Positions 24,339 to 54,146 of a DNA stretch of 64,000 nt are shown here, piece after piece. The stretch covers positions 192,001 to 256,000 of the IMG/VR virus record IMGVR_UViG_3300021978_000001. One strand, given 5' to 3'. This DNA comes from a virus. Taxonomy: Duplodnaviria; Caudoviricetes. Position numbers and translations under genes: made by a program. Numbering within the stretch: position 1 is the stretch's first letter; every line of letters starts with the position of its first letter. The notes under the pieces are model-generated. The model was not told the DNA's origin, did no database searches, and saw nothing but the letters and a program-made list of their open reading frames with translations.

Positions 24339-24776
24339 TTATGCAGGCTCGGCACGCGCGAGCTTGATAATAATCGCGCCAACTCGCGCCTCACCCTCCA
24401 CACTTTTCAGGCGCAGAAGAGGAGGAATCTTACCCCGCAATGCCTTTTCGAGATCTTCGGCCATACCCCAAGCCTGTCCCATGGCCTTTTGACTGTATCC
24501 CCGCATGGGCTTACGATAACTGAGCCAGATCTCGATAGTCTTTGTGCCCAGGTCTGAGGTAGAACGCAACACCTTGACAGGCATGGCCCTCTCCGCAGCA
24601 TCCCAAACTTTACGGACAGCCATGCCCAACTCACCCTCATCTGCAAGCTCCCTGTACGTGCGCTGATTCTCAGGGTACGCTTGTTTATCAAGGTGAGCGA
24701 TCACAGGCTTGAGGTTCTTACGAAGATCAGGATTCGCGGTCCCGAGACGAATGAGCGCTTGCTTGAGGTCTGACAT
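24339..24776 (-). CDS. leader-tagged protein 1 (MSDLKQALIRLGTANPDLRKNLKPVIAHLDKQA + unique cargo)
   Basis: Shared N-terminal tag; start re-assigned to ATG 24776. Confidence 0.8.
   Translation of the reverse strand: MSDLKQALIRLGTANPDLRKNLKPVIAHLDKQAYPENQRTYRELADEGELGMAVRKVWDAAERAMPVKVLRSTSDLGTKTIEIWLSYRKPMRGYSQKAMGQAWGMAEDLEKALRGKIPPLLRLKSVEGEARVGAIIIKLARAEPA
24697..24713. repeat. 17-nt exact repeat GCGATCACAGGCTTGAG, copy 1 of 5
   Basis: Identical at 24697, 29591, 38856, 44872 and 54061; encodes LKPVIA on the minus strand. Confidence 0.9.
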
Positions 24777-24804
24777 CTGAGTCCCTTGGTTAATACATGA
24801 GAAA

Positions 24805-24831
24805 AGGCACGATGCCTTACACATCGTGCCT
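24805..24831. other. perfect 10-bp stem-loop (possible terminator or 5' UTR hairpin)
   Basis: aggcacgatg-ccttaca-catcgtgcct; preceded on the minus strand by CTTATAT and followed by TTT. Confidence 0.6.
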
Positions 24832-24872
24832 CAAATATAAGTGCATCATCACCAGACGTTTAGCGCTTGCTG

Positions 24873-25376
24873 TCAGCGCTTGCGCACAAGCACGACACGA
24901 TCAGGAACAGCGTTGACATCCGACTTGTAGTGGATCGTGTTGCGTGACATATCCATCTCAAGCGTCCCCAGCCTCTTGCCTCCTCGACTCAGCTTCACCA
25001 CAAGCAGGGTGCCAGAGGGGTACAGGTTGGACGAAGCCACGGTGCGCTGATCGTACACGACCGTCACCAGCGCAGGCTTCGGCAGGGTCGCGCGATAAAG
25101 GACGAGCTTGTCGCCCTTGGACGCTCCTGTGAGGACACCTCGGATCTGACCCGTGAGGTAGGGCTGAACGGTTTGCTTGTAGAACGTGCGATCCTTCGTC
25201 TCGATCTCACGCTCAAGCTCCAGCACCCGGTTAACATCCCCACTCGAAAGCGCTGCACGAAGCTCCCCAAACATCTCGTTGGGGTCGATGATCGAGGAGA
25301 GCACGGCCTTGATATGTGGCCGCAATGCGGGGTTCGCATTGCCCAGGCGGATGAGTTTTTGTTTCAATTCGGACAT
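24873..25376 (-). CDS. leader-tagged protein 2
   Basis: MSELKQKLIRLGNANPALRPHIKAVLSSI. Confidence 0.8.
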   Translation of the reverse strand: MSELKQKLIRLGNANPALRPHIKAVLSSIIDPNEMFGELRAALSSGDVNRVLELEREIETKDRTFYKQTVQPYLTGQIRGVLTGASKGDKLVLYRATLPKPALVTVVYDQRTVASSNLYPSGTLLVVKLSRGGKRLGTLEMDMSRNTIHYKSDVNAVPDRVVLVRKR

Positions 25377-25421
25377 GACAGCCTCTTTGCAAAGGGTGAA
25401 GAGAAGAGTCGTAACCAGGCT

Positions 25422-25805: not shown

Positions 25806-25903
25806 GATCCCCTCGTCGGATATAGGTTGCCTGGATCAGCAAGTCTCAGGTCCGTATGACCTGGGAACACCTACAGAGAGGATGAGTGGATTAACGCCGA
25901 AAC

Positions 25904-26329
25904 TCAGCGGCGCAGCAACCGAAAGAGCCCCTCGGGACGATGCCTCGTCAGGTCTATTTCCCCGATGGTGCGCATCTTGAGGTCGTCCACGAAGATCTCC
26001 TCGACTTCATCCTGCGGCGCAGTGGCAAAACCCGTGTTGTTGTATAGCGAAAGGTAAAAACCCTCCCCTCCTGGACCGAACACCTCATGCGTGTAACCCC
26101 TACCCTGCGGACTATCTCCTCGATAGATCCCCCCACCACGAGCGATCTCATATATCTCGGTGCCCGTACCAAGGGCCTTCTCGATTATCCTTGTGATTTG
26201 AGCAAACGTAGGGAGCGCGGCTGCGTGCCTGTGCTGCGTGCTCAGGTGCGCAATAACGGGCTTGAGGTGACGACGAAGGTCAGGATTGGCATTCCCGAGA
26301 CGGATGAGCTGAGTCTTGAGATCGGACAT
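25904..26329 (-). CDS. leader-tagged protein 3
   Basis: MSDLKTQLIRLGNANPDLRRHLKPVIAHL; start re-assigned to ATG 26329. Confidence 0.8.
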   Translation of the reverse strand: MSDLKTQLIRLGNANPDLRRHLKPVIAHLSTQHRHAAALPTFAQITRIIEKALGTGTEIYEIARGGGIYRGDSPQGRGYTHEVFGPGGEGFYLSLYNNTGFATAPQDEVEEIFVDDLKMRTIGEIDLTRHRPEGLFRLLRR

Positions 26330-27176: not shown

Positions 27177-28067
27177 TCAGATGCCCAGGAATTTGCGTGG
27201 AGTGAGGCTTCCGTTACCCGTCACAGGGCCGAAAGACGAGCGCACACCCAAACCATAGCGAGACTGACGAAGCCCTCGCATGTACTTGACCGTGCGCTGC
27301 TTGCCGTCAGTCATCATCTTCTCGAACTGCTGCTCTGCGTTCTGCTTGAGCGACTCGTATTTCGAGCTGCGTTCGATCGAGAGACTGACACCACCAATAC
27401 TGTAATCGAACTCGTCCGCGATCCAGTTGAACGTCAGCGCCATGGCTGCCATCGCCATGGCGCCCGTGATCACCCAGGGAATCCAGTTGCGTTGACCCGC
27501 GACCATGGCGTTGACATCCGGGAAGCCTGTAGCAGGAGGATAGGAGTTGATGAGCAAGACCGACTGGTCGAGGTACTCCAACAACTCCTCATCCTCCCAG
27601 ATGTAGGCGAAGACACGGTTGAACTGATTGACCGTCCCCGAGGAGGTCGGAGGGCGGAAGTGGTAGTTGCGATCCGGGTTGTTATCACGTAGACGAATCC
27701 GCAGGCGCCGGATCATGTCCAGCTCGGTCGCGGTGAACGTCACGAGCTGCAAGGTGGACGGCTCGACGATCTCGAACTCTTCGAGCACCGTATTCACCGG
27801 GTCCCCTGCATTTTCGGTGATCGACCACCGGATGCGATACAGCCCATACGCCACGTTCTCAGGAACCTGGAAGTGTGCGTAATACTGCCCCACACCCGTG
27901 CGCACAGGATCACGCGCCGCTGGACCGATCAAGACCTCGGAGCCTGTTGTCACATCATACAGGGCATACGTGATCTCGAACGGGTCCACCGGCTGGTTGG
28001 CGCCGTCGAGAACCTCGATGTCCAGGTCTGTAGGCTCGGTGATCGAACCCCGGGTGAGTTGCAGCAT
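27177..28067 (-). CDS. putative head-tail adaptor (neck) protein with N-terminal Ig-like domain
   Basis: N-terminal beta-sandwich (GVGQYYAHF..YRIRW); C-terminal IWEDEELLEYL..EFDYSIGGVSLSI..SKY. Confidence 0.6.
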   Translation of the reverse strand: MLQLTRGSITEPTDLDIEVLDGANQPVDPFEITYALYDVTTGSEVLIGPAARDPVRTGVGQYYAHFQVPENVAYGLYRIRWSITENAGDPVNTVLEEFEIVEPSTLQLVTFTATELDMIRRLRIRLRDNNPDRNYHFRPPTSSGTVNQFNRVFAYIWEDEELLEYLDQSVLLINSYPPATGFPDVNAMVAGQRNWIPWVITGAMAMAAMALTFNWIADEFDYSIGGVSLSIERSSKYESLKQNAEQQFEKMMTDGKQRTVKYMRGLRQSRYGLGVRSSFGPVTGNGSLTPRKFLGI

Positions 28068-30534: not shown

Positions 30535-31215
30535 TCAAAGGCACGCCAGGGGATCGAACGTGATCATCCTGCCCTTTACAGAAGCTCCAGGACAGTTCAA
30601 GCCTGCGAGGAACTCTTGAGGGTCCGTGATGGTGTCCGCATCCAGGAAGCCCTTCATCATCCCCGAGCGTTGCTTCAGGTTCCAAAGAGAGTGATTGTGC
30701 GTGCGATCTCCCCATGCGATGATCTTTTGCATAAGCTCGGGGAACCATAGACCCGTCGTCAGGTCAATCTTGACCTCGACGACTTCCACTCTGTTTTCAC
30801 CGAGCGGGGCCGTGGTCTTTTTCTCGCTAAGGATCTTCCCGTAGACCGTCTCGATCGTACCACGCTGCTTATCATACTGCGCGTACACCGTGCTCGTGAG
30901 AGGCTTGGAGACGATCTGAGAGGTATAGATAACGCGTGATCCCGAGACCTTTACCGAGTTCGGAGACGCGAACGTCAAGCCAGGCACAGTCGGGTAGTCG
31001 TACTGGATTTTGTTATCTCGACGCGACAAAACGCCCTGAGCGACTTGAGGTGCAGAGCGAATCAGCTCACGCAGATACACGCCCCACTCCCTGGAGCTTC
31101 GCGAAGCCTGTGCCTGGCGACTCTTCGTCAAGTAGGTGAGTACCCTCTTGAGATGAGGCCGAAGCTCGGGGTGTGCATTCCCGAGCTTGATCAGGTGTTG
31201 TTTCAAATCAGACAT
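30535..31215 (-). CDS. leader-tagged protein 8
   Basis: MSDLKQHLIKLGNAHPELRPHLKRVLTYLTKSRQA. Confidence 0.8.
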   Translation of the reverse strand: MSDLKQHLIKLGNAHPELRPHLKRVLTYLTKSRQAQASRSSREWGVYLRELIRSAPQVAQGVLSRRDNKIQYDYPTVPGLTFASPNSVKVSGSRVIYTSQIVSKPLTSTVYAQYDKQRGTIETVYGKILSEKKTTAPLGENRVEVVEVKIDLTTGLWFPELMQKIIAWGDRTHNHSLWNLKQRSGMMKGFLDADTITDPQEFLAGLNCPGASVKGRMITFDPLACL

Positions 31216-36652: not shown

Positions 36653-37660
36653 TTATTCATCCTCCATCAGGAGGGTAGGCGTCTCGTACCCGGGGATCAT
36701 GTCCGCAGCACGTCGAATCTTCTCCGCAGCAGCGGTCTCGTTAAGTGCGTGCAAGAGACTGGAGACCTTGCGCAACGTGTAGATGATGCAGGGAGGGATG
36801 TCTTCGGTCGCGTCGGATTCGAGGACGGCATCGAAGACGTTGGCAGCCTCATAAAGGTCTTGCAAGTAAGGGACGAGCTGGACATAGGGCAGATGCCACC
36901 TCTCGCCATCACGTTGCAGAGCATGCACCATAGCTTCCCGAAAGAGCGACGCCTCATCGTAATACTTGAGGTGATCGAGGTAGTTGATCAGGGTACGCAC
37001 GAAGCCTGTGTGAAAGAAAGACAAGGCCCCTGCGTTGAACCCCCGATTGAGGGCACATCTACGACTCAAGGCCACCGCTTCTCCTGTCAAGGTATAACCC
37101 GTCTGGGGGAGAGGTCGCGAAGCGGTAAGAGTCCCCATGCCCGGCGAACCCGGCGTGAAAGGACGCACGAGGCGTTTGCCTCGAAGGAAATCCCCTTCAA
37201 GGTACTCGATCCATCCAAACGTGCGCGTGGGGTCGATGAGCATCTGCTCGTCACAGTTTCCTTGCGTAAACTTCGAGTGGCTCATCCCGATAGCGTTGGT
37301 GAACCCTGCATTGACCTCTTGCTTGAGCGGACGCTCGGGGACGCTGTGGTCCACGGAAACAGTCACCGCCAACCAGAAGCGTGGCGCCATGGGCTCGGTG
37401 TTATTGCGTAGGACAATGTACTTCGCGGTCACCGTATAATGAGAAGCCGTGGACTTGGAAACCTCGACCTCCTCGAAGTCCACCTTGCGTCCGAGAGCCT
37501 GGTACAAATAACGCTCGTACTCCGCGCGCGCACGTCGCAGTTGTGATGCAAGCGCATCAGCGTGTTGATTCACGCGCTTTGCTTCCGTGCGTTGAGATGG
37601 GTCCATCCCCAGCATGGAAGCGCGTCGTACAAACTTTTCGACCAGTTCTCGGTGTGTCAT
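36653..37660 (-). CDS. hypothetical protein, 335 aa
   Basis: Coherent ORF with 4-nt overlap to the Dps-like gene. Confidence 0.6.
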   Translation of the reverse strand: MTHRELVEKFVRRASMLGMDPSQRTEAKRVNQHADALASQLRRARAEYERYLYQALGRKVDFEEVEVSKSTASHYTVTAKYIVLRNNTEPMAPRFWLAVTVSVDHSVPERPLKQEVNAGFTNAIGMSHSKFTQGNCDEQMLIDPTRTFGWIEYLEGDFLRGKRLVRPFTPGSPGMGTLTASRPLPQTGYTLTGEAVALSRRCALNRGFNAGALSFFHTGFVRTLINYLDHLKYYDEASLFREAMVHALQRDGERWHLPYVQLVPYLQDLYEAANVFDAVLESDATEDIPPCIIYTLRKVSSLLHALNETAAAEKIRRAADMIPGYETPTLLMEDE

Positions 37661-39903: not shown

Positions 39904-39961
39904 ATCGAAGTCTCCTTCTTGTGAGCTGTTCAGAGGTGAGCTTGAACCGAGCGCGTCTGGG

Positions 39962-40720: not shown

Positions 40721-42145
40721 TCAGAACTCACCCTTGGAGAATGCGTCAGAGACGTCGGGTGCCGAAGTCCACAGATTCGAGAGGACATCGCCCCCTCCCT
40801 GTGCACTCGATTCCTTCACCCGCCCGAGAGACTGAATGTTCTTCTTGGTGCTTGCCTGGCGCTGGCCAGCAGGCTGCGTCGAGTATTGACGCGACATCAT
40901 CGCTTCGAGATCTTCATCTCCAGCCATCATCGCGTCATCATCGAAGGTGTCCATGGCAGGCATGAGGTCGAGCCCCATTCCCATGCCCATGGCTTCCTCT
41001 TCCATACCCGTGAGCATGGCGTCGAGGTCGTCTTCCATCTCCATGCCGTCATGCATCGAGTCGCCACCCACAGGCGCCCACTCGTCACCACAGCTATCGT
41101 GCTCCATGTCCTCTTCGTCATCTTCGCTGTAGACGAGAGAGTCGTGCTGCATGCCGTCACGCTCAAGCGCGTTCAGCTCTGCGAGCATGGAGTCAAGCGA
41201 GGCTTCCTTATCGGAGTCCTCGTCTTCATCATCATGATCTTCGGCCACCTTGAGACCAGCGGCCTTGAGTGCTGCCTGAACTTCTGTGCGGATGATGTCA
41301 GCAAGAGAAGCCTCCTTGGACTCCTCTTCCTCTTCTTCCTCATCATCCCCAGCAGTCACAGTCGAAGCGTCCTTATCGGACTCGTCTTCGTCCTCTTCAG
41401 CCATCTTGAGGCCAGCAGCCTTGAGCGCAGCCTGGACTTCTTTCTGGACGAGATCAGCGATCGAGGACTCCTTGTCAGACTCTTCATCCTCGTCTTCGTC
41501 CTCGTCCTCATCGTCTTCTGCATCCTTGGAAGCAGCTTGCTTGGCTTCCGCCTGCATCTGACGAAGCATCTCATCGGGGGTCAAGGAAGCGTCCTTATCG
41601 GACTCGTCGTGATCTTCCTCCTCATCGTCTCCCGCGAGGCGCGAAAGCTCTTCTGCTTCCGCGAGGCGAAGAATGGTCGCCACGAGCGCGTCATCAGGCA
41701 TGCTCATGAAGTCGAGAGCCTGCTCGGTGATCACTTCATCGCTGGCAGTGGGGATGAGAAGGCTGGCAATACGAACGCACTGGAGGGCCTTCTTTTCAGC
41801 GTAGCGCTGCATCTGTGCGGCGCGCTGTGCAGCCTGGCGTGGGTTGGTAGGCCCGTCCGAGACACCATTGGTGTCGGTGGGCTTGAACGACCCTGCGTTA
41901 TCGTAGGGCTGGCCGTCCATTGCCTCATCCACGTCCTTGTGATCGTGGGTGTTGTCGAGCATGGTAGGCATCGACACTTCATTGCGACCCTCTTGCTCGA
42001 AGCGGCTCAGGTCTTCCACAGGCTCTTCGGCCCATGCGGAAGGCTCACCCGTCATGTAATCTTCGACAGGGGGGTTGGTCTTATCTTGATTCATGGTGTA
42101 CGGGTCAGCGGAACGCTGCCACGTAAGTCGCTTACGACGGCTCAT
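40721..42145 (-). CDS. putative scaffolding protein, highly acidic with internal duplication
   Basis: Between protease and MCP; D/E tracts; two copies of EVQAALKAAGLK(M/V)AE; start re-assigned to ATG 42145 (GGAGGA RBS). Confidence 0.65.
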   Translation of the reverse strand: MSRRKRLTWQRSADPYTMNQDKTNPPVEDYMTGEPSAWAEEPVEDLSRFEQEGRNEVSMPTMLDNTHDHKDVDEAMDGQPYDNAGSFKPTDTNGVSDGPTNPRQAAQRAAQMQRYAEKKALQCVRIASLLIPTASDEVITEQALDFMSMPDDALVATILRLAEAEELSRLAGDDEEEDHDESDKDASLTPDEMLRQMQAEAKQAASKDAEDDEDEDEDEDEESDKESSIADLVQKEVQAALKAAGLKMAEEDEDESDKDASTVTAGDDEEEEEEESKEASLADIIRTEVQAALKAAGLKVAEDHDDEDEDSDKEASLDSMLAELNALERDGMQHDSLVYSEDDEEDMEHDSCGDEWAPVGGDSMHDGMEMEDDLDAMLTGMEEEAMGMGMGLDLMPAMDTFDDDAMMAGDEDLEAMMSRQYSTQPAGQRQASTKKNIQSLGRVKESSAQGGGDVLSNLWTSAPDVSDAFSKGEF

Positions 42146-42269
42146 GTTGATCCTCCAGAGCGGTAGGGGTCTTCGGTGCTTGCAAGTCCGGTCACTTACC
42201 CCTGCCATACAGGGGAGCGTCAAAGACGGTGCCTATAAGCGTAAAACCGGCGAAAATCCCTATTTTTTA

Positions 42270-43848: not shown

Positions 43849-44133
43849 TTACTCCTCGTTGTGCCTCTGCATGAGCAAAGGCATCAAATCCGAACGCAAC
43901 TCCGGGCGATCGAGCGCCAACTCGACCAGCTCCGCATACAAAGCGCGCTCTTCTTGATCAGTGATCTGGGGAACTCGACTCAAAGTATTCAACAACTGCA
44001 ACCCAGGCGCCTGAAGATCCTGCGAAGATGCGGTGCGTACCGTACCGAAATACAAGCGCGCGGCCTGACGAAAGGATTCATCTCGTGAAGCGCGCGCAGT
44101 AAAAGCACGCTTGATGTCCGCAGGGATTTTCAT
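43849..44133 (-). CDS. small protein with a C-terminal copy of the leader
   Basis: ATGA-coupled start at 44133; ..VRTASS..; ends ELVELALDRPELRSDLMPLLMQR. Confidence 0.65.
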   Translation of the reverse strand: MKIPADIKRAFTARASRDESFRQAARLYFGTVRTASSQDLQAPGLQLLNTLSRVPQITDQEERALYAELVELALDRPELRSDLMPLLMQRHNEE

Positions 44134-44543
44134 TTCAAATGATCCGAGAGCTTCTGGTCGATCGCAGCAAACAAATCCTCCAAGGACTCGTGTTGCCCGG
44201 TCTCCCACTTGTGGAACTGCGCATCCTGGAAGCTCGTACCCACGTGCAACATGGTCTCGATGTCGTAGCCATCACCCTTGTGCACGATGTCGAACTTGAG
44301 ACGCCATTGTACCTGTGTGATCTGACCCTCCAGATAACCAGGCTCGCGCTTGGTGATAGAAGTGTCGTAGTCACACGCGGTCGCGTAAGCGTCGGTCAAC
44401 TCCTTGAGGAAGTGGTTTCGCACGAAGTCGAAAATCGCCACATCAAGCGTGGACAACCCCGCGCGTTTGAGCACCGGACCCAACGCCTCACGCAACGTAG
44501 GCCGCGCGAGAGCGAGGCCGATGAGTTGGTGGTGCAAAGGCAT
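44130..44543 (-). CDS. leader-tagged protein 12 (divergent tag)
   Basis: MPLHHQLIGLALARPTLREALGPVLKRAG. Confidence 0.75.
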   Translation of the reverse strand: MPLHHQLIGLALARPTLREALGPVLKRAGLSTLDVAIFDFVRNHFLKELTDAYATACDYDTSITKREPGYLEGQITQVQWRLKFDIVHKGDGYDIETMLHVGTSFQDAQFHKWETGQHESLEDLFAAIDQKLSDHLK

Positions 44544-44552: not shown

Positions 44553-44948
44553 TTAGAAGCGGACGGGACCCTTCACCTTGAAGCGCTTCGCAAGAAGCGA
44601 AACCATGTCGGGCAACATATCAGGTTGGAAATTCCGCAAAGGCGCCATCACCACGAGATTCTTATCGAGGGCCTCGACCAACACCCCACCCGCGTCCGCC
44701 GCGACACCGAGCGAACGCATATGCTTCGCGATGTCCTCGGTCATCTTGGCAGTCTCCCTGGCCGTATGCTCGACCACAGCGAGCGACGCACCAGAGACGA
44801 GACTGCGCCCGATGTACACACCGTGATAAGCGGTGTACAACGTGTAGGTTGCCGCTTGCTTATCAAGGTGTGCGATCACAGGCTTGAGATCTTGACGAAG
44901 CTCGGGCTTTGCGTTACCGAGTCGAATGAGTTGCGCTTTCAAATCCAT
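44553..44948 (-). CDS. leader-tagged protein 13
   Basis: MDLKAQLIRLGNAKPELRQDLKPVIAHLDKQA; start re-assigned to 44948. Confidence 0.85.
   Translation of the reverse strand: MDLKAQLIRLGNAKPELRQDLKPVIAHLDKQAATYTLYTAYHGVYIGRSLVSGASLAVVEHTARETAKMTEDIAKHMRSLGVAADAGGVLVEALDKNLVVMAPLRNFQPDMLPDMVSLLAKRFKVKGPVRF
44872..44888. repeat. 17-nt exact repeat, copy 4 of 5
   Basis: GCGATCACAGGCTTGAG. Confidence 0.9.
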
Positions 44949-46306: not shown

Positions 46307-48331
46307 TCATGTGATCCGGCGAAGAATACCGAGGAGGCGTTCGTAAGTCGGAGCATCAATCATGCCTGCATACTTGTACTGCGACGCCGTGTGGATCGCA
46401 TAATCGAGAGCCAGACACAGAAGCATATCTTCCTGTGCACCTTCCATCTCACGCACATAAGCAAGGCGAGAATCCGTCAACCAGAGCTTCGCTTCGCTCA
46501 AGATGAGCTGGTAGTCTTCCAACTCCAGGCACATCGACCCCAGGGGCAATCGCCACTCGGGCGCGGGCGGGCTCTCCTTGCGGGGGAGGGGACCCGGGAG
46601 TCCTCGGTACTGCGCGGTGCGTGCACGATGCGTCGCGCTCGCACGGTATGCACGAGTCATCCCATGCGCGAAACTCTTTGCGAGCACATGAGCTTTCTTC
46701 TCATTATCCATCAGGGCCTCCAGGAGTTGGGCCATCCAGGCGCCAAAGCCATCACGAGACACATTCTCGGGGGTCTTGGTCGCGCGCTGTTCTTGCTGAC
46801 GCCTCATGATAAACGCCTTGACCTGAATCGGATCGAAGGTTCGAGCACGTCCAGGCTCATCAGGCGTCATACGCAACTGCTCGAAGTAGCCTTGCGTCAA
46901 GAAATCATCGGTCAAGTAATCGAAGAGGCGTTGACGAAAAGCCTGACTCAACACAGCTCCGTCACTCGGAGTGTCCGCATCGTAATCCAACGCCATGCGG
47001 TAGTCCGGGTTATCCTTTACCAAGTCCACAAGCTCTTTATCGGAGAGCTTGCGCATGTTATCCACGAATCCCTTGACGGCATCCGGGTCAGTAAAGTCTA
47101 CCTTGCTGGGATCAAGACCCTCCTTACCCGCGTCCTCCATGGTCTTGAGGAGCTGACCATAGCCTGTGGTAGCATCAAAGCTCTTCTTGGCCAGGACTTC
47201 ACCCATCATACCGCGCAACTCGGTGTAATACTTGTGCGCGCTCGACCCCTCCTCTTGCTTTTCGATCACTTCATCGAGGTCTTCGATGGCCTTGGCCACG
47301 TCCGCCTTCGAGGAGAACAAGGCAGACTGGTAGAGCTTGGGTGAATCGAAATTGAGCTGACGCACCATCGCGGTATCATCGAGCTTGTTGAGTGCTGTCT
47401 TCGAGGGCATCAGCTTCGTGATGCTCACGTTCTCATCCGAGAGCGAAGGCAAGTTACGAAGCTCACCACGCGCCTCTTCGTACACTTTCTGGATCTCTTC
47501 GTAGTACGCCGCCTTGTTCCGATCGTTCTCGCGCACCGCTTGCGCCATGCGCTCAGACACATCCGCCAGGCCAGCATCATGGTCATACACGTCCCAGTTC
47601 TTGGCATGAGTCTCCAACTTCTGGCGCGTCTCTGCGGAGAGTTCACCCTCGAAGTCTTCGGGCATCTCCTGGACACCTTCAGGGTACGGCTGCTTTTGTT
47701 CGAGCATCACCTGGCGGGCCGCTTGCGAGTCGATCGAATCAGGGTTATCCGAGACAGCCTTGTCATACAGATCATCGTAGGTTGCCCCTGAATCACGATA
47801 CTTCTGCGCTCGCGCGTCCACCTTCTCTTCCGGTGTCATGTCTTCGGGGGCCTTGGGCTCCTCTGGAGCGACAGACTGCCCAAGCTCCTCCATAAGCGAC
47901 CTCTCGGTCTCGGAAAGCTCTTCGACAGGCTCATCGGCCTCTGGTCGAATCTGAAGCTGCTTTTCGTGCGGCTCCTCTTCCTCGACCTCCTCTTCAGGTG
48001 ACGCCTCCTCTTCCGTCGAGGTCTCGTCTTGCTCCTGAATCGTGTGATCCTTACGGTCCGCCCCCGGGTGCTTTTCCTTGTAGGCTTCCCACGCCTCTTC
48101 GGTCGCAAACTCCATGGCCATCAAGTACAAGCGCGCGACCCTCCCCCCGATGTCCTTGTAGTTCAGGGAGAGGTCCTTGTCCTTGGTGTCTGTGTCTCGA
48201 TCCTTCTGCTCGACACGACCACGCTCCTTATCACGGCGCGGGGGTTTCTTGGTCGGGCTCTTACGCACCAAGCGCTGTGCCTCTTCTTCCTCGCGCTCTG
48301 CATCTGACTTTGTAGCGTCACGTTTCATCAT
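46307..48331 (-). CDS. large acidic hypothetical protein, probably head-associated
   Basis: 674 aa directly downstream of portal; contains GRVARLYLMA. Confidence 0.65.
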   Translation of the reverse strand: MMKRDATKSDAEREEEEAQRLVRKSPTKKPPRRDKERGRVEQKDRDTDTKDKDLSLNYKDIGGRVARLYLMAMEFATEEAWEAYKEKHPGADRKDHTIQEQDETSTEEEASPEEEVEEEEPHEKQLQIRPEADEPVEELSETERSLMEELGQSVAPEEPKAPEDMTPEEKVDARAQKYRDSGATYDDLYDKAVSDNPDSIDSQAARQVMLEQKQPYPEGVQEMPEDFEGELSAETRQKLETHAKNWDVYDHDAGLADVSERMAQAVRENDRNKAAYYEEIQKVYEEARGELRNLPSLSDENVSITKLMPSKTALNKLDDTAMVRQLNFDSPKLYQSALFSSKADVAKAIEDLDEVIEKQEEGSSAHKYYTELRGMMGEVLAKKSFDATTGYGQLLKTMEDAGKEGLDPSKVDFTDPDAVKGFVDNMRKLSDKELVDLVKDNPDYRMALDYDADTPSDGAVLSQAFRQRLFDYLTDDFLTQGYFEQLRMTPDEPGRARTFDPIQVKAFIMRRQQEQRATKTPENVSRDGFGAWMAQLLEALMDNEKKAHVLAKSFAHGMTRAYRASATHRARTAQYRGLPGPLPRKESPPAPEWRLPLGSMCLELEDYQLILSEAKLWLTDSRLAYVREMEGAQEDMLLCLALDYAIHTASQYKYAGMIDAPTYERLLGILRRIT

Positions 48332-50246
48332 CGGTGTCCATAGCAGTTTGCATCATCTGAGCCACGCGTTGACTCAGATCAGGATTTGCGGCGAGCGCTC
48401 CCGCGATATAGGAAGCCATGTGTGCCTCATCAGAAGGCGGCATGGCAGCCCCCTTCCTACGAGTCGAACCGAAGCGCGAATTGGTATCCTTGGGCGGCTT
48501 GTAAGACAGCTCCAGGTAGTCCGCCACGCGCTCCAGCATATCCGACTGCTCGGGCAGGGAACGTCCAAGCTCCGAATACGAACTCCTCAAAATCTCGTTG
48601 AACAACGAATCGTTCATGGTCAAGAAATCCTGACGCAAGCGCTCCTCGACCGCCTGGGGGTCGAGGTTGAACAGCTCCAGGATATATCCAACCGCGAGGC
48701 TTCCCTTCTGGTAGAGGTTGAACATCGCATCGAACGTGTCACGGTTATCGCGCAAGGCGAGACGCGTGAAGCTCAACTCGGGGTACAACACCACCTCATT
48801 GCCAAACTCATCATACTCTACGAAGCCCTTCTTGATCGCCACGGGGCGGAACAGGTTCTCTTCGACGTACTGCTGCATGCGTTCGCGATACAACATATAC
48901 CTCGTGTTGATCACCTCGATATTGATGCGCTCTCCTGAGTAGCTCGACTCACCCGTGAGCATGGACTCGGTGACACCCAGACCCGCGAAGAGCTGGCGAT
49001 CGGTGATGTCATACTCGGAGTTCAGGTCGAGCAGGCGATCACGCGCAGAGATCTCCTCCCAGGTCACCTGGAAGTTTGTGATCAGCGAGTAATCAGGGTC
49101 GAGCAACATCAAGTCCACCTGCTCGCGCAGCTCCTCGACGTCTGCGAGGCTCATGTCCTCTGCATAAATCAAGCGCTTGGGAGTCATGGCGCGCGATGCA
49201 ATCGACGTCTGCGCCTGACGCAGCTTGTCGCGATACACGAGCACGCGCATCACAGACTGCAAGATCGAGATGCCGTGATCTTTCCCCGGCTCCTTGTTTC
49301 GCGGGAGGTGATACACGAACGAACCCTCGTCCGGGTCTGTCCCGAGAGGAAGGTTCTCTCCCTGCGCGATGTAGTGGATGATTTCCTCGGGGACATCAGC
49401 CAGCGCTTCGATGGCGTTGGGGTCCTCCATAATAGCAGCCTGGACCAGAGCCTTGGTGCGCTCGTCCGGGACCAGCTCGACCTTGTAAGCTCTGGAGTAA
49501 GAATAAGTCTCCAGCCTTACCTGGTCGGGGGGCAGCAAGATCACACGATCCCACCCCTTGTAGTGCTGCTGCTTGTATGCTCGAATACGATCATCCGCAT
49601 CATCGACACGTTGACGAATGATGCTTGTTTCCCCCGAGGCGGTATCGAGATGATTGACGTCCTCCGTATAGACGTACTCGGGAACATCGACCTCGGAATC
49701 CTCCGCAAACAGGAAGGCTTCCCCGACCACATAGAACTCACGCGTGGCATCCACCAGGAGATTCAAGAGGTCGATACGCTTGACCATATCCTCGTAGAAT
49801 TTCAAGATTTGGCGGTTGCGCTTGGGGTCCTTCCCCTTGGGCATCGTCAAACGGAGCTTCGATAGTGGCAGCTCGGTGTGCAAGATCACCGCTTGCTGCA
49901 CATAAGGGTCGTTATTGTAGAAGAAACGGTAGTACGACCGCATCTCCGCCAGGTTTTGAGGCAGCTCCAGGAAATCAGTGGAGAGCTGTGGCGAATAGAT
50001 GTTGGTCGCGCTTCCCAGGGAGACGTTAGCCGAACCCATCCCGAGACCGCCCCCCATACCCCCACCAAAGCCATAACCGTAAGCGCCGGAGCCTCCTACA
50101 TAGTTGCTGACCTTGTTGGCGCGCGATGCGATGCGTGAGCTAGGCCGTACCTCTGCTTGACCCGAAGCAGACATCATGCGTCTTACCTGAGAGACAGAGG
50201 ACACCGTGATCGCATCCGCGTTTTGCTTGTTCAATTTCGAGGGCAT
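48318..50246 (-). CDS. portal protein
   Basis: Follows terminase; YRFFYNNDPYVQQAVILHTELP..GISILQSV..PKRLI..LFAGLGV..LTGESSYSG. Confidence 0.75.
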   Translation of the reverse strand: MPSKLNKQNADAITVSSVSQVRRMMSASGQAEVRPSSRIASRANKVSNYVGGSGAYGYGFGGGMGGGLGMGSANVSLGSATNIYSPQLSTDFLELPQNLAEMRSYYRFFYNNDPYVQQAVILHTELPLSKLRLTMPKGKDPKRNRQILKFYEDMVKRIDLLNLLVDATREFYVVGEAFLFAEDSEVDVPEYVYTEDVNHLDTASGETSIIRQRVDDADDRIRAYKQQHYKGWDRVILLPPDQVRLETYSYSRAYKVELVPDERTKALVQAAIMEDPNAIEALADVPEEIIHYIAQGENLPLGTDPDEGSFVYHLPRNKEPGKDHGISILQSVMRVLVYRDKLRQAQTSIASRAMTPKRLIYAEDMSLADVEELREQVDLMLLDPDYSLITNFQVTWEEISARDRLLDLNSEYDITDRQLFAGLGVTESMLTGESSYSGERINIEVINTRYMLYRERMQQYVEENLFRPVAIKKGFVEYDEFGNEVVLYPELSFTRLALRDNRDTFDAMFNLYQKGSLAVGYILELFNLDPQAVEERLRQDFLTMNDSLFNEILRSSYSELGRSLPEQSDMLERVADYLELSYKPPKDTNSRFGSTRRKGAAMPPSDEAHMASYIAGALAANPDLSQRVAQMMQTAMDTDDET

Positions 50247-50679: not shown

Positions 50680-50867
50680 GCTTTCTTGAGCGCGGTCCAG
50701 GCATCAGGGTCAGCATTCGCGAGCGCCTCCCACGAGCCTCCTGTGTTCTCATAGAGCGCCGCGACAGCATCGAGAACAGGCACAGGGCGTTCAGTCACGC
50801 CCATTTTGCGCAACGCTTCATCCACGCAAAGGTGAGCGAAGCGGTCATAACGCTCTGCCATCACCAT
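50640..50867 (-). CDS. hypothetical protein, 75 aa
   Basis: Overlaps terminase stop; AGGAGA RBS. Confidence 0.55.
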   Translation of the reverse strand: MVMAERYDRFAHLCVDEALRKMGVTERPVPVLDAVAALYENTGGSWEALANADPDAWTALKKACKAYVAWKRDQK

Positions 50868-52861
50868 CTCCTCTTGTGCATACGCTGAATCGCACGAAGT
50901 CGTGCGCCGCGTTGAAGCTGTGTGTTGTTACGGCGCCCCTTACGGCGGTGGTACTCGGTCGCAGAACGAGGGACATTATGGTAAGAGGCTTCACCCTGAG
51001 CGTTGTAGTTGGCACCCTTGGCGATATGCGTTTGACGCCCGGACGCCATTACGGAAAGCCATACCGAGCGAATCAACGCATCCGCAAAGTCATCGTGCTT
51101 CCCAACAACATTGGGCGCCGCGACTTCGACCACCTTCTTGGACTTGTAGCTCGCTTGCAGCTCCAACAACTCCTCGATGTAGGGCGCAGACTTGACCACA
51201 CCCGTGCCTTCGAGGTTGGAGAGGTCGATGTTCGAGTCCATGTCATCATCCCCCGCCCCAGTGTCACGCAAGGTGAAATCGTAGAGGCGCAGCTTGTTGT
51301 GGTACATCAGCGTCTTGAACGCGTCGTACATGCGGCTGGTCTCGTCCTTGGTGAATTGCTTGGACTGGATCTGGTCGAGCCCCATCTTGTCAAGTGTCTG
51401 CTGGAAACTCAACGCGTGCCACTGATCGAACAGACCTTCCTTGATGAAGAATTTGCGCGAGACCGCGCGTACCCAGTTGGCCAATTCATCAAAGTCGAGC
51501 ATCTCGACACCAGGCATCTCCTTGACGTAGGGGACCAGGGGCGCGGAGAGGTGCGGGTTCAACTCATACCAATCTGCCCCTGCCTGCCACTGCTCGTGGT
51601 ACACGAGGCGGATGTGCTCCCCTTCAGGGCGCGTCAAAACCAACGCCGTGCGGTCATTGACCACCGCGAGGTCGAGCCCCATGTAATGCGCTTGCCTCGC
51701 CTGACCACGAACCTCGGGCTTGAGATCGACATCGACACAAGCCATCAGGTCCTTGCGACGCTCGATCCAACCACTGGCGCGGTCCGTGAACTGCGCTCCA
51801 AATTCGGTATCGAACACGCGTGGGTTCGACGCCTGGAAGTTCCGCAAGAAGTTGACGGGGACTGTGGGGTTAACCTCCCAGGTAGGCGCCTGGATCATGA
51901 GCAAGTCTTCCGAATCCTCCCCGCCACGCTTGGACTGCTGATACTGGTTAAAGAACAGCCCCTCCTTGGCGAACGGCGAGGAGATCAGGATGATGCGACC
52001 CTCGGAGTTCTGAGAGAGCATCTCCCCGGGATTGTTCGGGTCCGCAGGGTTGAAGGTCGCCACAGAAGGCGTCACAGCATCATAAACGTTCTGTGCCGAG
52101 CTTCCGCCCTTGCTCTTGAAGAACGCGACCTCATCGAGAATCACGACGATGTTCGCGAAACCACGAATACCCGAGCTAGACGAGGAGAAGAATCGAATCT
52201 GATAGCTGGCGCGACCATCCTCACGTGCAGAACCCGTCGTATCCAGATCGTGCGGCGTCTGGAACTTCATGTACGTCTGCGTATCATGTGACAGATAAGG
52301 GTCAAAGAACGCACACGTCACGAAGTAGTTGCGGATCGCGTTGTACAAGATCTGCGACTGATCCTTGGTCGGAGCCACAGTAGAAAGCGTGATCTCCGCA
52401 CCTTCAGCCATGCCATAGTAATTCTGAGGATCACCCTTACGCAAGAGCTTGTAGCTCTCGAACGCCCCGATAATCGAAGACACGAAGGACTTCCCAGAAC
52501 GACGACCAATCGGCAGCACGAGCGTTCGACGCATGTGATCTTGAGACTTGAGGTTGCACCGCCCCTGATCGTGCAAGTAAGCCATGTACTCCAACTCGGT
52601 GAAGTTGTAGTAATGCTCGGGCTTTGCACTCTGCGCGTATTGCCACAGCCTGGGGATTTTGATGTTGCGTTCGGTGTTATCCAGTTCGATATGGTAAAAG
52701 GACTTGAGGATAAAGCGCTGCACAGGGTACAGTTGAACACGCTGATCAGGACCCATGTTCAAGCCATAGGGCGAGTCCACGAAATCCATGATCGACATGG
52801 CTTCCGTTTCATTATCGCGGCTCCTACGACCGATGCGACCGAAGAGATCTGAGAGTGACAT
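50861..52861 (-). CDS. terminase large subunit
   Basis: Walker A PIGRRSGKS, Walker B VVILDEVAF, coupling ISSP, nuclease GLDLA and HDDFADA. Confidence 0.9.
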   Translation of the reverse strand: MSLSDLFGRIGRRSRDNETEAMSIMDFVDSPYGLNMGPDQRVQLYPVQRFILKSFYHIELDNTERNIKIPRLWQYAQSAKPEHYYNFTELEYMAYLHDQGRCNLKSQDHMRRTLVLPIGRRSGKSFVSSIIGAFESYKLLRKGDPQNYYGMAEGAEITLSTVAPTKDQSQILYNAIRNYFVTCAFFDPYLSHDTQTYMKFQTPHDLDTTGSAREDGRASYQIRFFSSSSSGIRGFANIVVILDEVAFFKSKGGSSAQNVYDAVTPSVATFNPADPNNPGEMLSQNSEGRIILISSPFAKEGLFFNQYQQSKRGGEDSEDLLMIQAPTWEVNPTVPVNFLRNFQASNPRVFDTEFGAQFTDRASGWIERRKDLMACVDVDLKPEVRGQARQAHYMGLDLAVVNDRTALVLTRPEGEHIRLVYHEQWQAGADWYELNPHLSAPLVPYVKEMPGVEMLDFDELANWVRAVSRKFFIKEGLFDQWHALSFQQTLDKMGLDQIQSKQFTKDETSRMYDAFKTLMYHNKLRLYDFTLRDTGAGDDDMDSNIDLSNLEGTGVVKSAPYIEELLELQASYKSKKVVEVAAPNVVGKHDDFADALIRSVWLSVMASGRQTHIAKGANYNAQGEASYHNVPRSATEYHRRKGRRNNTQLQRGARLRAIQRMHKRRW

Positions 52862-52881
52862 GGGTCCTCCTTGATGGGGGT

Positions 52882-53436
52882 TTACGCGGACGGCCTACCG
52901 CCCGCTTTGATGTACTTCAGTGCCTCCTTCTCCCAGTCCTCGAAGACGGACTGCATGGCGGAGAAAAAGCGCTGAATCATCTCATCAGGCATTTGAGATT
53001 CCATGCATGCCTCCTCGATCTTGTTGCCCCAGAACTCGAACAAGAGCTTGAAGTTCTGTGAGCGGAAATCGAAGGTCTCGTCCAGCATGGTCTCACGTTT
53101 CTTCAAGAACGTGTCGATCACCGCCTTGGTCGCGCTGATCTTCTTGGAAGAAATGCTCGTGGTATCCTTCCCCTTACGCTCCGCCTCACTGCGCTCGAAA
53201 TCCAGGCTCCCGGCTTCCTTGGCCAGCTCAAGCATGGCAAGGTCCAGGATGTCCATCGAATGAGGCGCCTCTTCGAGACGGGTGATCAAGGGGTTGTCAC
53301 GTAGGTGCTTGCGCTTGTTGCGCATGAGCTGTGCGACCTCTTCGTCCACAGGCTCGATGGGAATCTTGGGAGGACGTCCAGGTCCCCTCTTTTTCTCCAC
53401 GCGCTCCAACTTGACAATCTGTAGTTTCCCCATCAC
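52882..53436 (-). CDS. putative terminase small subunit
   Basis: Immediately upstream of TerL; AT-hook-like KKRGPGRPPK and helical body. Confidence 0.45.
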   Translation of the reverse strand: MMGKLQIVKLERVEKKRGPGRPPKIPIEPVDEEVAQLMRNKRKHLRDNPLITRLEEAPHSMDILDLAMLELAKEAGSLDFERSEAERKGKDTTSISSKKISATKAVIDTFLKKRETMLDETFDFRSQNFKLLFEFWGNKIEEACMESQMPDEMIQRFFSAMQSVFEDWEKEALKYIKAGGRPSA

Positions 53437-53459
53437 GACCTCCTTAACTGTGGTTCCGG

Positions 53460-54146
53460 TTAGCGCAACTGTGCAGCAACACGCTTGAGCATGGCCGCCT
53501 CATTCGGCATATCCAATGCCGAGAAGAGTACCCCCATGGCAAACGTGATCAGGTACGCCTGTTGGCGCATCTTCTTGGGATCTTGGGACATCACGGCGTC
53601 GATAAACTTCGAGCCTCCCGCGCGGAGCTGACCCGCGAGCTGACGAATCTGACCGAAGGCATCTGCGGTAAGCTCCAACGAGCCATAGACAGACAAATCA
53701 GGGCTGACCATTTTGGTCGTATCCAGATGAAGCGTTACCTCCATCTCGCCCCCACGACCCGGCGTGATCTTCAACCTACGGACAGGCACACCTCGTCGAT
53801 CGAGAAGCCTCATCAATGTCTTCTCATCTTGCCGAGCACGGTCCAAATCCTCGATGAACTGAAGCTCTGGGTCCATGGCCACATTCACCCGGTACGTCGC
53901 TCGAATCACATCAGGACCATGCAAGTACGCATCGACATGACGACCGTTGTAATCGCTCATCCTCTTCAACTCACGGCGTACCATCTCAAGGTAGTTCTCG
54001 CGAGTAGACGCTTGACGGTTAGCACTAGGCGAAGAACCCTCCATCGTCGCGGTGACCATGGCGATCACAGGCTTGAGATTTTCCCGAAGCTCGGGGTTCG
54101 CGTTCCCGAGGCGGATGAGTTGGTTTTGTAGCTTCATCAGGTCCAT
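53460..54146 (-). CDS. leader-tagged protein 14
   Basis: MDLMKLQNQLIRLGNANPELRENLKPVIAMV...NRQAS. Confidence 0.85.
   Translation of the reverse strand: MDLMKLQNQLIRLGNANPELRENLKPVIAMVTATMEGSSPSANRQASTRENYLEMVRRELKRMSDYNGRHVDAYLHGPDVIRATYRVNVAMDPELQFIEDLDRARQDEKTLMRLLDRRGVPVRRLKITPGRGGEMEVTLHLDTTKMVSPDLSVYGSLELTADAFGQIRQLAGQLRAGGSKFIDAVMSQDPKKMRQQAYLITFAMGVLFSALDMPNEAAMLKRVAAQLR
54061..54077. repeat. 17-nt exact repeat, copy 5 of 5
   Basis: GCGATCACAGGCTTGAG. Confidence 0.9.

What the first reader, a model, noticed from the sequence alone, without database searches (positions are those of the whole stretch)
24339..54146. A shared ~30-aa leader on about 14 unrelated cargo proteins: candidate capsid-loading tag system
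Seen in sequence: the motif [L/I]xxxL[I/V]RLGxAxP[E/D]LRxxL[K/L]P[V/I][I/L]AxL starts ORFs at 24776, 25376, 26329, 29207, 29667, 30387, 31215, 38516, 38932, 44543, 44948 and 54146. It also occurs internally (26370-27152) and C-terminally (43849-44133). By eye the sequences after the tag are unrelated (about 65-345 aa). Most tags end near a [K/R]-x-A site (DKQA x3, DRQA, SRQA, QRQA, TRTA, NRQA, QRTA, LKRA). All copies sit in slots between core head/neck genes (neck, adaptor, Dps, MCP, protease, terminase) and none among the replication or left-hand accessory genes. Established analogy: T4 internal proteins IPI-III share an N-terminal capsid-targeting sequence removed by protease gp21, and the ip1 locus is variable and anti-restriction; phiKZ-like phages package many protease-processed head proteins. 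Inference: the helix-Pro-helix tag docks on the scaffold or capsid interior, is cleaved, and releases a swappable set of proteins ejected into the host (anti-defence or takeover effectors). The number and modularity of these cassettes suggest a system I cannot match to a described one.
Basis: partly seen in the sequence, partly recalled or inferred. Interest (0 to 1): 0.92.

Follow-up and report, generated by a model that had tools for sequence, protein, structure and literature searches.

The report
Shared docking tag on megaphage proteins
A 437-kb uncultivated phage puts the same ~28-residue two-helix peptide on 17 otherwise unrelated proteins, mostly encoded among its head genes; the peptide is widespread in related huge phages, matches no Pfam or PHROG family, and is most likely an address label for loading proteins into the phage head, though loading has not been shown.

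Summary
Exactly 14 minus-strand ORFs in the window carry the motif: 12 N-terminal, one internal, one C-terminal. Three more tagged genes lie elsewhere in the 437,490-bp circular phage genome.

The parts outside the tag share no BLASTP similarity. Synonymous codons differ freely inside the tag and the upstream DNA is not conserved, so selection acts on the peptide.

The motif is not private to this phage. A profile finds 1,881 protein clusters in metagenomes, with 1-5 copies per protein at any position, often separated by charged linkers. It has no Pfam, PHROG or PDB counterpart.

Tagged genes occupy variable slots between conserved head, neck and tail genes in relatives whose capsid protein is 76-92% identical. 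In one relative a Dps-like protein carries the tag. The tag is bracketed by [KR]-x-A(-S). That motif also punctuates the very acidic scaffold-like protein, 8 times against 0.6 expected, and also in a tag-less relative with a homologous protease.

Best reading (about 0.5): a modular, probably protease-removable docking peptide for procapsid loading, analogous to the T4 capsid-targeting sequence but unrelated to it in sequence and layout. Packaging, cleavage and ejection are inferred.

This scan has noted analogous but different tags in other huge phages.

The parts
53460..54146 (-). Tagged gene, 228 aa, tag at residues 3-41, between the 1007-aa protein and the small gene upstream of the large terminase
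44553..44948 (-). Tagged gene, 131 aa, N-terminal tag; absent from this slot in the relative L009 (capsid protein 92% identical)
44130..44543 (-). Tagged gene, 137 aa, divergent N-terminal tag; conserved next to the protease in relatives; K-x-A lies exactly at the tag/cargo boundary in all 10 orthologues aligned across that boundary; alpha+beta cargo in a low-confidence model
43849..44133 (-). Tagged gene, 94 aa, C-terminal tag (residues 62-94), immediately upstream of the protease gene; orthologue in L009
38636..38932 (-). Tagged gene, 98 aa, first gene after the capsid gene; orthologue in L009
38103..38516 (-). Tagged gene, 137 aa; its stop overlaps the start of the Dps-like gene by one base
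30535..31215 (-). Tagged gene, 226 aa; absent from this slot in L009
29938..30387 (-). Tagged gene, 149 aa, divergent tag; orthologue in L009
29245..29667 (-). Tagged gene, 140 aa; absent from this slot in L009
28080..29207 (-). Tagged gene, 375 aa, acidic cargo; orthologue in L009
26370..27152 (-). Tagged gene, 260 aa, internal tag at residues 118-156, flanked by KSAS just before it and RTAS at its end
25904..26329 (-). Tagged gene, 141 aa
24873..25376 (-). Tagged gene, 167 aa
24339..24776 (-). Tagged gene, 145 aa
42326..43843 (-). Prohead protease, 505 aa. The protease domain is at about residues 100-270. A roughly 230-aa C-terminal extension is absent from the 287-300-aa proteases of the tag-less phages Tunturi_5 and G
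40721..42223 (-). Very acidic scaffold-like protein (net charge about -86) with 8 [KR]x[AS]S motifs against 0.6 expected
39962..40630 (-). Ala/Gly-rich 222-aa protein in the position of a capsid decoration gene; function not tested
39025..39903 (-). HK97-fold major capsid protein, 292 aa from the ATG
37657..38103 (-). Dps/ferritin-like protein, 148 aa, untagged here; its homologue in relatives L010/L011 carries an N-terminal tag
27177..28067 (-). Conserved 296-aa probable neck/adaptor protein with tagged genes on both sides; also found near tagged genes in relatives
48318..50246 (-). Portal protein
50861..52861 (-). Large terminase subunit
54165..57188 (-). Basic 1007-aa protein with 8 [KR]x[AS]S motifs against 1.9 expected; candidate processed internal protein

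Best explanation
The motif is a self-contained peptide module of about 28 residues. Its wide consensus is S-L-R-x-x-L-I-R-L-A/G-x-x-N-P-E-L-R-x-x-L-L/K-P-L/V-L/I, with two near-invariant prolines and three conserved basic residues, and it is predicted to form two short helices. I read it as a docking label. Late in infection, proteins carrying it are recruited to a common receptor in the assembling procapsid, most likely the extremely acidic scaffold core or the inner face of the capsid shell. Proteins with several tags separated by Lys/Glu/Asp-rich linkers, which are common in relatives and occur once in this genome, would act as multivalent core components or polyproteins. The prohead protease then probably cuts at [KR]-x-A(-S) sites. 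These sites bracket the tag and punctuate the scaffold, so cutting would free the cargo inside the head and dismantle the scaffold. The cargo set turns over quickly between relatives. What the sequence data establish: the module, its protein-level selection, its modular attachment, its enrichment among virion genes, and the site enrichment. Inferred: docking, cleavage, packaging, and any ejection or effector role.
For: 1. There are 14 copies in the window and 18 tags on 17 proteins in the genome, all on one strand. Fourteen of the 17 genes lie inside a 30-kb head/neck block of a 437-kb genome.
2. The cargos are unrelated by BLASTP. Identical tag residues use the same codon only 33-70% of the time, and upstream DNA is not conserved, so the peptide itself is under selection.
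3. The tag profile finds 1,881 clusters at E <= 1e-3. In the best 150 there are 1-5 copies per protein: 128 N-terminal, 123 internal and 25 C-terminal.
4. Modularity: in L010/L011 (capsid protein 85% identical) the Dps-like protein carries the tag, but here it does not. Cargos in relatives include LRV/HEAT, WGR and GNAT domains, zinc ribbons and an HExxH protein.
5. Slot turnover: in L009 (capsid protein 92% identical) five tagged genes have orthologues, but 44553-44948, 38103-38516, 30535-31215 and 29245-29667 are missing from the same slots. In L003 the slot between the DUF5659 gene and the adaptor gene holds a non-homologous double-tag protein.
6. 71 IMG/VR loci were found by a tag DNA pattern alone, and all were confirmed by the profile. 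Of these, 48 have a neighbour with a homologue in this genome, and 33 of those 48 have a neighbour matching the virion block at genome 192-250 kb, which is 13% of the genome.
7. [KR]xA follows the tag in 66% of instances against 11% at random. [KR]x[AS][SA] directly precedes internal tags in 46% against 1%.
8. The same motif occurs 8, 9, 9 and 6 times in the scaffold-like proteins of this phage and three relatives, against 1 or fewer expected. In the tag-less Tunturi_5, whose protease is 44% identical, it occurs 5 and 7 times in the scaffold-like and ejection proteins.
9. AlphaFold2 gives helix-break-helix for each tag and a low-confidence (pLDDT under 50) linker in the two-tag protein.
Against: No experiment or proteome places any tagged protein in a virion, and no cultivated phage in the GenBank phage set carries the tag. 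Three tagged genes here lie outside the head block, one of them among replication genes that are conserved with it in a relative. About a third of the mapped IMG/VR loci have only non-virion neighbours. The scaffold-like protein, protease, portal and capsid protein carry no tag, so the receptor is unknown. The [KR]-x-A(-S) motif could be a structural part of the module rather than a cleavage site. A Dps dodecamer could not pass through a tail, so at least some cargo would not be ejected.
Confidence: 0.5

Rival explanations
1. The motif is a permanent assembly ('sticker') domain rather than a removable address. Tags bind each other or a structural partner and build a head-internal or neck-associated protein network. 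Multi-tag charged proteins act as cross-linkers, and the tagged proteins are structural components rather than delivered effectors.
For: In relatives the tag is as often internal or repeated as N-terminal, with Lys/Glu/Asp-rich spacers. One protein in this genome has a tag at each end of a charged middle. Two tagged genes next to the protease are conserved like core genes.
Against: The rapid turnover of single-tag cargos, and their attachment to Dps, GNAT and LRV domains, look like client recruitment. The bracketing [KR]-x-A(-S) motif shared with the scaffold suggests removal. The two-tag AlphaFold2 model has pTM 0.41 and a low-confidence linker, so it cannot say whether the two tags pack against each other.
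Confidence: 0.2
2. The tag is a recognition peptide for a partner outside the capsid, such as a chaperone, a modifying enzyme, a degradation or regulatory factor, or a host target. Its concentration among virion genes would then only reflect late co-expression and local duplication.
For: Some tagged genes sit among replication or other non-virion genes, both here and in IMG/VR loci. An earlier finding of this scan (e1-127136) showed that a shared phage leader can turn out to be an enzyme recognition site rather than a capsid signal.
Against: No enzyme or other non-virion gene is consistently linked to the tag. The genes that recur next to tagged genes are capsid, decoration, protease, portal, Dps, adaptor, sheath and other tail genes. 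The flanking motif is shared with the scaffold-like protein.
Confidence: 0.15
3. The shared sequence is a DNA-level feature: a recombination or gene-capture cassette, or recent tandem duplication, with no function as a peptide.
For: Five or six tags in this genome are 71-93% identical in protein, and several of their genes are absent from the closest relative examined, so they were gained recently.
Against: Identical residues use different codons in 30-67% of positions. Upstream DNA shows no conservation beyond a ribosome-binding site. The motif is conserved in protein across 1,881 clusters of very different DNA.
Confidence: 0.03

Closest known systems
Capsid-targeting sequence (CTS) of phage T4 internal proteins IPI-IPIII and Alt, removed by the gp21 prohead protease (from my own knowledge; discussed in PMC5694885 and PMC9026906, both listed)
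   Same: One short peptide shared by unrelated proteins encoded by a large myovirus. It is proposed to send them into the prohead core and then be cut off by the head protease at a motif that also cuts the scaffold.
   Different: There is no sequence similarity. This tag is about 28 residues in two helices, against about 10 residues in T4. It works at N-terminal, internal and C-terminal positions and in arrays of up to five. The putative cleavage motif is [KR]-x-A(-S), not [LI]-x-E. The scale is 17 proteins per genome and 1,881 clusters. The capsid is related to that of phage G, not T4.
Propeptides of head and ejection proteins in phiKZ-like giant phages (SPN3US, 201phi2-1), processed by a gp21-like protease (PMC10052503, PMC7411985)
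   Same: Giant phages that package many proteins, several of them matured by the prohead protease.
   Different: Those propeptides are not one shared, recognisable sequence module, and the cleavage motif differs (from my own knowledge it ends in Glu). The capsid and protease lineages are unrelated to this one at the sequence level searched here.
C-terminal helix-turn-helix coat-binding domain of P22-type scaffolding proteins (from my own knowledge)
   Same: A small basic two-helix unit that docks a protein to the inside of an HK97-fold procapsid.
   Different: There is no detectable sequence relation. This module sits on many non-scaffold proteins, while the scaffold-like protein of this phage lacks it. 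Binding to the capsid protein could not be assessed.
Encapsulin cargo-loading peptides (from my own knowledge)
   Same: A short portable peptide that directs diverse cargo, including ferritin-like proteins, into an HK97-fold shell.
   Different: This is a true tailed-phage head with portal, terminase, protease and tail genes. The peptide has a different sequence and length.
Polyvalent proteins of phages and conjugative elements (Iyer, Burroughs, Anantharaman and Aravind; named in earlier finding e1-5347556, not read here)
   Same: Long mosaic phage proteins that string different domains together and are thought to travel with the DNA. Relatives here have proteins of up to 1,780 aa with five tags and a GNAT domain.
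   Different: In this genome most tagged proteins are small and carry a single cargo. The recurring element is the short tag itself, not a set of enzymatic domains with an embedded processing peptidase.

Membership tests
T4-type capsid-targeting sequence system | A short N-terminal leader shared by internal head proteins and recognisably similar to the T4 CTS | tested here: not met
   The tag is about 28 residues and occurs at N-terminal, internal and C-terminal positions. No PHROG or Pfam family, which include T4 proteins, matches any tagged protein.
T4-type capsid-targeting sequence system | The leader ends at the gp21-type cleavage motif [LI]-x-E | tested here: not met
   The residues after the tag are enriched for [KR]-x-A, not [LI]-x-E.
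T4-type capsid-targeting sequence system | Tagged proteins are packaged in the prohead core, processed, and present in virions | not testable with these tools
   No cultivated carrier of the tag was found, and there is no proteome.
Encapsulin cargo-loading peptide system | The shell gene lacks portal, terminase and tail genes, and cargo genes adjoin the shell gene | tested here: not met
   Portal, large terminase, protease, sheath-like and neck genes surround the capsid gene.
P22-type scaffolding coat-binding helix-turn-helix | A two-helix basic unit | tested here: met
   AlphaFold2 gives helix-break-helix, with tag-region pLDDT of about 63-77. Conserved R/K at tag positions 4, 9 and 18.
P22-type scaffolding coat-binding helix-turn-helix | Located on the scaffolding protein and binds the coat protein | tested here: inconclusive
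   The scaffold-like protein has no tag. The coat-tag co-fold gave no answer, which counts neither for nor against binding.
Any curated protein family (Pfam-A, PHROGs) or solved structure | A significant profile match over the tag | tested here: not met
   There are no Pfam or PHROG hits over the tag in the proteins scanned. The tag profile against the PDB finds only designed helical bundles, through the generic 'x-P-E-L-R' helix start.
Polyvalent proteins | A very large protein joining several distinct enzymatic or effector domains | tested here: inconclusive
   This is met by some relatives (1,780 aa with GNAT and five tags; 1,071 aa with LRV repeats). It is not met by the 14 window proteins of 94-375 aa.

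The most novel reading that the evidence does not exclude
The tag is a general-purpose 'sticker' of a multivalent capsid-core loading system in a large clade of uncultivated megaphages. The same two-helix peptide would be used by multi-tag, charge-rich linker proteins that build or condense the procapsid core, and by single-tag client proteins that ride in with them. It would work at any position in a protein, and the head protease would erase it at flanking [KR]-x-A(-S) sites. That would be a programmable cargo-loading mechanism for tailed-phage heads, different in kind from the T4 leader and closer in logic to encapsulin or carboxysome cargo recruitment.
Probability: 0.2. Interest if true: 0.8.

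Novelty: new variant of a known kind. Interest (0 to 1): 0.62.

Why it matters
If the reading holds, a single searchable peptide would mark the packaged and possibly injected proteome of a globally distributed clade of huge phages that nobody has cultivated. The capsid family has about 1,950 members on contigs up to 527 kb, and the tag is found in 1,881 protein clusters. Hundreds of 'hypothetical proteins' would become a defined class of candidate takeover, protection or anti-defence factors. The [KR]-x-A(-S) motif would give a testable specificity for the prohead protease. A position-independent tag of 28 residues would also be a practical handle for loading foreign proteins into HK97-fold capsids. 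Even if the capsid reading is wrong, this is a large, conserved short module with no Pfam or PHROG family, and it deserves one.

Tried and rejected
- **Co-fold of capsid protein with tag** (alignments A4 and A5): no answer. This counts neither for nor against binding. No other partner (scaffold helices, protease C-terminal extension, portal) could be tried because only one job was allowed.
- **Foldseek of the 44130-44543 model against the PDB**: nothing at E <= 0.001, and the model itself has low confidence (pLDDT 65).
- **ESM Atlas look-up of the 375-aa cargo**: no usable hit; the Atlas's own model is poor.
- **Pfam and PHROGs** on 13 of the 14 tagged window proteins (44553-44948 was not scanned against either library) gave only sub-threshold noise. 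Pfam on 128 tagged relatives found only a few cargo domains.
- **Cultivated phages:** tblastn of tagged proteins against 50,697 GenBank phages found only the uncultured record LR745208. Whole-record profile scans of phage G and Tunturi_5 found no tag.
- **Collection scans that failed or missed:** The search for related loci with tag alignments or peptides failed for technical reasons. The genome-contig scan with a multi-tag protein used linker words, not the tag, so it says nothing about cellular genomes.
- **Apparent tag-less orthologues of 44130-44543** (P0281, P0282): for P0282 this is a gene-calling artefact, since an ATG and a full tag lie in frame upstream. P0281 was not checked. I do not use either as evidence of tag loss.
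- **Phage G particle proteomics** reports a ferritin-like protein (PMC12484599), but phage G has no BLAST-level homologue of the window's Dps-like protein. This is an analogy only.
- **Tag-like sequence in core head proteins:** none in the scaffold-like protein, protease, portal, capsid protein, or the 674-aa and 1007-aa proteins.
- **DNA-level cassette hypothesis:** rejected on codon usage.
Full report
**1. What is there**

The window is bases 192,001-256,000 of a single 437,490-bp contig whose ends overlap, so this is a circularly assembled phage genome with 57% G+C. Genes in the window are packed on the minus strand. Profile searches identify:
- the large terminase (50861-52861);
- the portal (48318-50246);
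- a prohead protease (42326-43843);
- an HK97-fold major capsid protein (39025-39978 as listed; probably from the ATG at 39903);
- a Dps/ferritin-like protein (37657-38103);
- a weak head-tail connector match (27177-28067).

The nearest cultivated relatives by capsid protein are Tunturiibacter phage Tunturi_5 (48% identity) and Bacillus phage G (40%). The uncultured 485-kb record LR745208 is 75% identical.

**2.

The internal copy (residues 118-156 of 26370-27152) and the C-terminal copy (residues 62-94 of 43849-44133) are also real. A profile of the 14 copies scores each at E 8e-23 to 3e-13, and the next six-frame hit in the window has E 0.33.

Across the whole genome the same profile, and a broader one built from 294 tag instances, find three more tagged proteins, giving 18 tags on 17 proteins:
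- one with a tag at each end of a Lys/Asp-rich middle, ending at about genome position 324,832;
- one N-terminal, 272,771-274,015;
- one internal, 382,628-383,506.

With tags masked, no pair of the 17 proteins matches by BLASTP at E <= 0.1; the one hit under E 1 is at E 0.15.

**3. Selection is on the peptide, not the DNA**

Among the most similar tags (71-93% amino-acid identity), identical residues use the same codon in only 33-70% of positions. The 60 bases upstream share nothing but a GGAG-type ribosome-binding site. This excludes recent DNA duplication or a portable DNA cassette as the reason for the similarity.

**4. The motif is widespread and matches no curated family**

- No Pfam or PHROG family covers it.
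- The tag profile against 1.84 billion cluster representatives finds 1,881 proteins at E <= 1e-3 and 90 at E <= 1e-10, ranging from 79 to 1,780 aa.
- In the best 150, proteins carry 1-5 tags: 128 N-terminal, 123 internal and 25 C-terminal. Multi-tag proteins have linkers with about 30% Lys/Glu/Asp.
- The ten looked up come from metagenomes, and none carries an informative name; the only annotation is one 'hypothetical protein'.
- The wide consensus is S-L-R-x-x-L-I-R-L-A/G-x-x-N-P-E-L-R-x-x-L-L/K-P-L/V-L/I. P15 is 98-99% conserved, P23 89-94% and R18 94%.
- AlphaFold2 models of a window protein and of a two-tag relative give helix-break-helix for each tag (tag-region pLDDT about 63-77). The linker of the two-tag protein has pLDDT under 50.
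- Against PDB sequences the profile matches only designed helical bundles, through the generic helix start x-P-E-L-R.
- Cargo domains recognised in relatives are sparse and diverse: LRV/HEAT repeats, WGR, GNAT, zinc ribbons and an HExxH protein.

**5. Genomic context**

In this genome 14 of the 17 tagged genes lie in a 30-kb stretch interleaved with terminase, portal, protease, scaffold-like, capsid, Dps-like and neck genes.

Synteny with relatives is clear.
- *L009 (capsid protein 92% identical):* it keeps orthologues of 44130-44543, 43849-44133, 38636-38932, 29938-30387 and 28080-29207. It lacks 44553-44948, 38103-38516, 30535-31215 and 29245-29667 at the same slots.
- *L003 (79%):* one tagged gene sits where the window has two. 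Between the DUF5659 gene and the adaptor gene there is a 467-aa double-tag HExxH protein whose cargo is not homologous to the window's.
- *L004:* five tagged genes, including a 1,780-aa protein with five tags, sit in slots that are empty in the window.
- *L010/L011 (85%):* the Dps-like protein itself begins with the tag. This is the clearest case of the tag attached to a recognisable autonomous domain.

A degenerate DNA pattern for the tag (about 40 bits) recovered 71 IMG/VR loci, all confirmed by the profile. Of these, 48 have a neighbour homologous to something in this genome. For 33 of the 48 that includes the virion block at 192-250 kb, which is 13% of the genome. The neighbours are capsid, decoration, protease, portal, Dps, adaptor, sheath-like and other tail genes.

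The association is not exclusive:
- The tagged gene at 272,771-274,015 lies among genes for a helicase/exonuclease V-like protein, ribonucleotide reductase and a clamp loader, and a relative conserves that arrangement (L081).
- Other loci adjoin a helicase with a homing-endonuclease insert, a metallophosphoesterase, SurE, patatin or SNF2 genes.
- In LR745208 the 11 tags are scattered.

**6. A candidate protease motif brackets the tag**

- [KR]-x-A lies within 12 residues after the tag in 66% of 270 instances, against 11% of random windows from the same proteins.
- [KR]-x-[AS]-[SA] lies immediately before internal tags in 46%, against 1%.
- N-terminal tags start M-S-x-L-K/R, which is what cutting an internal K-x-A|S-L-R would expose.
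- In the 44130-44543 family, K-x-A sits exactly where the tag meets the conserved cargo in all 10 orthologues aligned across that boundary.
- The internal tag of 26370-27152 has KSAS just before it and RTAS at its end.

The same motif is heavily enriched in likely protease substrates:
- 8 against 0.6 expected in the scaffold-like protein encoded between the protease and capsid genes (net charge about -86);
- 9, 9 and 6 in that protein's homologues in three relatives, against 1 or fewer expected;
- 8 against 1.9 in the basic 1007-aa protein 54165-57188;
- 5 against 0.9 and 7 against 1.4 in the scaffold-like gp332 and the annotated 'DNA ejection protein' gp328 of Tunturi_5. That phage has no tag, but its protease is 44% identical.

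Phage G, whose protease is more distant, shows no such enrichment. I infer that [KR]-x-A(-S) is the cleavage motif of this protease clade and that the tag is removable. This is inference from sequence statistics only.

**7. Mechanism proposed**

The tag is a basic, amphipathic two-helix docking unit. It recruits any protein that bears it to a common receptor in the procapsid; my best guesses are the acidic scaffold core or the inner face of the shell. Multi-tag charged proteins act as multivalent core components or polyproteins. The head protease then cuts at the flanking sites, which frees the cargo and dismantles the scaffold. Single-tag cargos are an accessory, fast-changing set.
- Established by the sequence analyses: the module, its selection, its modularity, slot turnover, enrichment among virion genes, and motif enrichment.
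- Inferred: docking, cleavage, packaging and ejection.

I put this reading at about 0.5. The rivals are a permanent structural 'sticker' domain (0.2), a recognition peptide for a non-capsid partner (0.15) and a DNA-level cassette (0.03, contradicted).

**8. Comparison with what is known**

The logic matches the T4 capsid-targeting sequence and the processed head proteins of phiKZ-like phages (PMC5694885, PMC10052503, PMC7411985, PMC9026906). Membership fails on each feature that could be tested: no sequence relation, a different length, independence of position, arrays of tags, and a different putative cleavage motif. It resembles the P22 scaffold's coat-binding two-helix domain in shape and charge only. 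It resembles encapsulin cargo peptides in logic only.

Literature searches found no description of this motif. Earlier notes of this scan report analogous but different shared tags in other huge phages. So the general phenomenon recurs and this is one more, unusually large, instance. I rate it a new variant of a known kind.

**9. Limits**

No cultivated carrier of the tag was found, so no virion proteome can be consulted. The single co-fold allowed (capsid protein with tag) returned no answer. The structure models are of modest confidence. Cargo functions in this genome remain unknown. The count of 1,881 clusters rests on a 40-position profile, although every one of the 71 loci found independently by the DNA pattern was confirmed.

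Noticed in passing
window 37657-38103 (and L010 14267-14851, L046/L092, L031, L085): A Dps/ferritin-like gene is a conserved member of the head module. Its start overlaps the stop of the upstream tagged gene by one base. In relatives the Dps domain carries the tag (L010/L011) or forms part of proteins of 300-1,040 aa.
   Followed up: partly
window 40721-42223: A 500-aa protein with net charge about -86, built of short amphipathic helices separated by Asp/Glu runs. Each unit begins with K-[DE]-A-S. This layout is conserved in relatives even though overall identity is low.
   Followed up: partly
window 42326-43843: The prohead protease has a C-terminal extension of about 230 aa. The extension is present in the four tag-bearing relatives examined (497-515 aa) and absent from the 287-300-aa proteases of the tag-less Tunturi_5 and phage G. 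It could be the protease's own docking domain or the receptor for the tag. In L012/L013 a 1,371-aa gene at 3618-7733, upstream of the capsid gene, has Hint/LAGLIDADG matches and matches the window protease over only 84 residues (61% identity); it may be a protease gene interrupted by an intein.
   Followed up: no
window 39025-39903: The capsid protein is unusually conserved: about 1,950 database proteins match at E <= 1e-10, the best 120 are 76-92% identical, and they lie on contigs up to 527 kb. This marks a large, abundant clade of uncultivated megaphages.
   Followed up: partly
window 46307-48331 and genome about 324,131-324,832: Besides the tag, multi-tag proteins of relatives share other short modules. 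One (W-x-x-x-K-x-K/H-P-G-A-x-x-K-D-H-x-I) occurs in the 674-aa protein just after the portal gene. Another (K-V-x-N-P...V-K-x-K-S-L) occurs in the two-tag protein outside the window. A Cys-pair module (C-E-K-L-P-x-G-x-M-R-x-N-C) occurs in 12 of the 150 relatives but not in this genome.
   Followed up: partly
window 54165-57188: A basic 1007-aa protein with no family match carries 8 [KR]x[AS]S motifs against 1.9 expected. Its L004 homologue sits among tagged genes. It is a candidate processed internal or ejection protein.
   Followed up: no
window 58400-59203, 60138-60677 and 60674-62134: Three genes upstream of the head block are conserved in the same order in relative L004. There two of them match sigma-70 region 4 and a KOW domain, so they may be late-transcription factors of the virion module.
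   Followed up: no
L010 5221-5649 (protein P0282): Public gene calls start this orthologue at an internal GTG and so hide its N-terminal tag. Counts of tagged proteins taken from predicted proteomes will therefore be underestimates.
   Followed up: yes
L018 5004-5657: On a contig whose end encodes a capsid protein 82% identical to the window's, a second ORF of 218 aa shows 24% identity to the capsid protein over 258 alignment columns. It may be a capsid paralogue, and it lies upstream of a run of six tagged ORFs.
   Followed up: no
window, upstream of 24776 and of 38932: G+C-rich hairpins followed by T runs lie just upstream of these two tagged genes. The second follows the capsid gene. They suggest separate transcription units within the block.
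   Followed up: no
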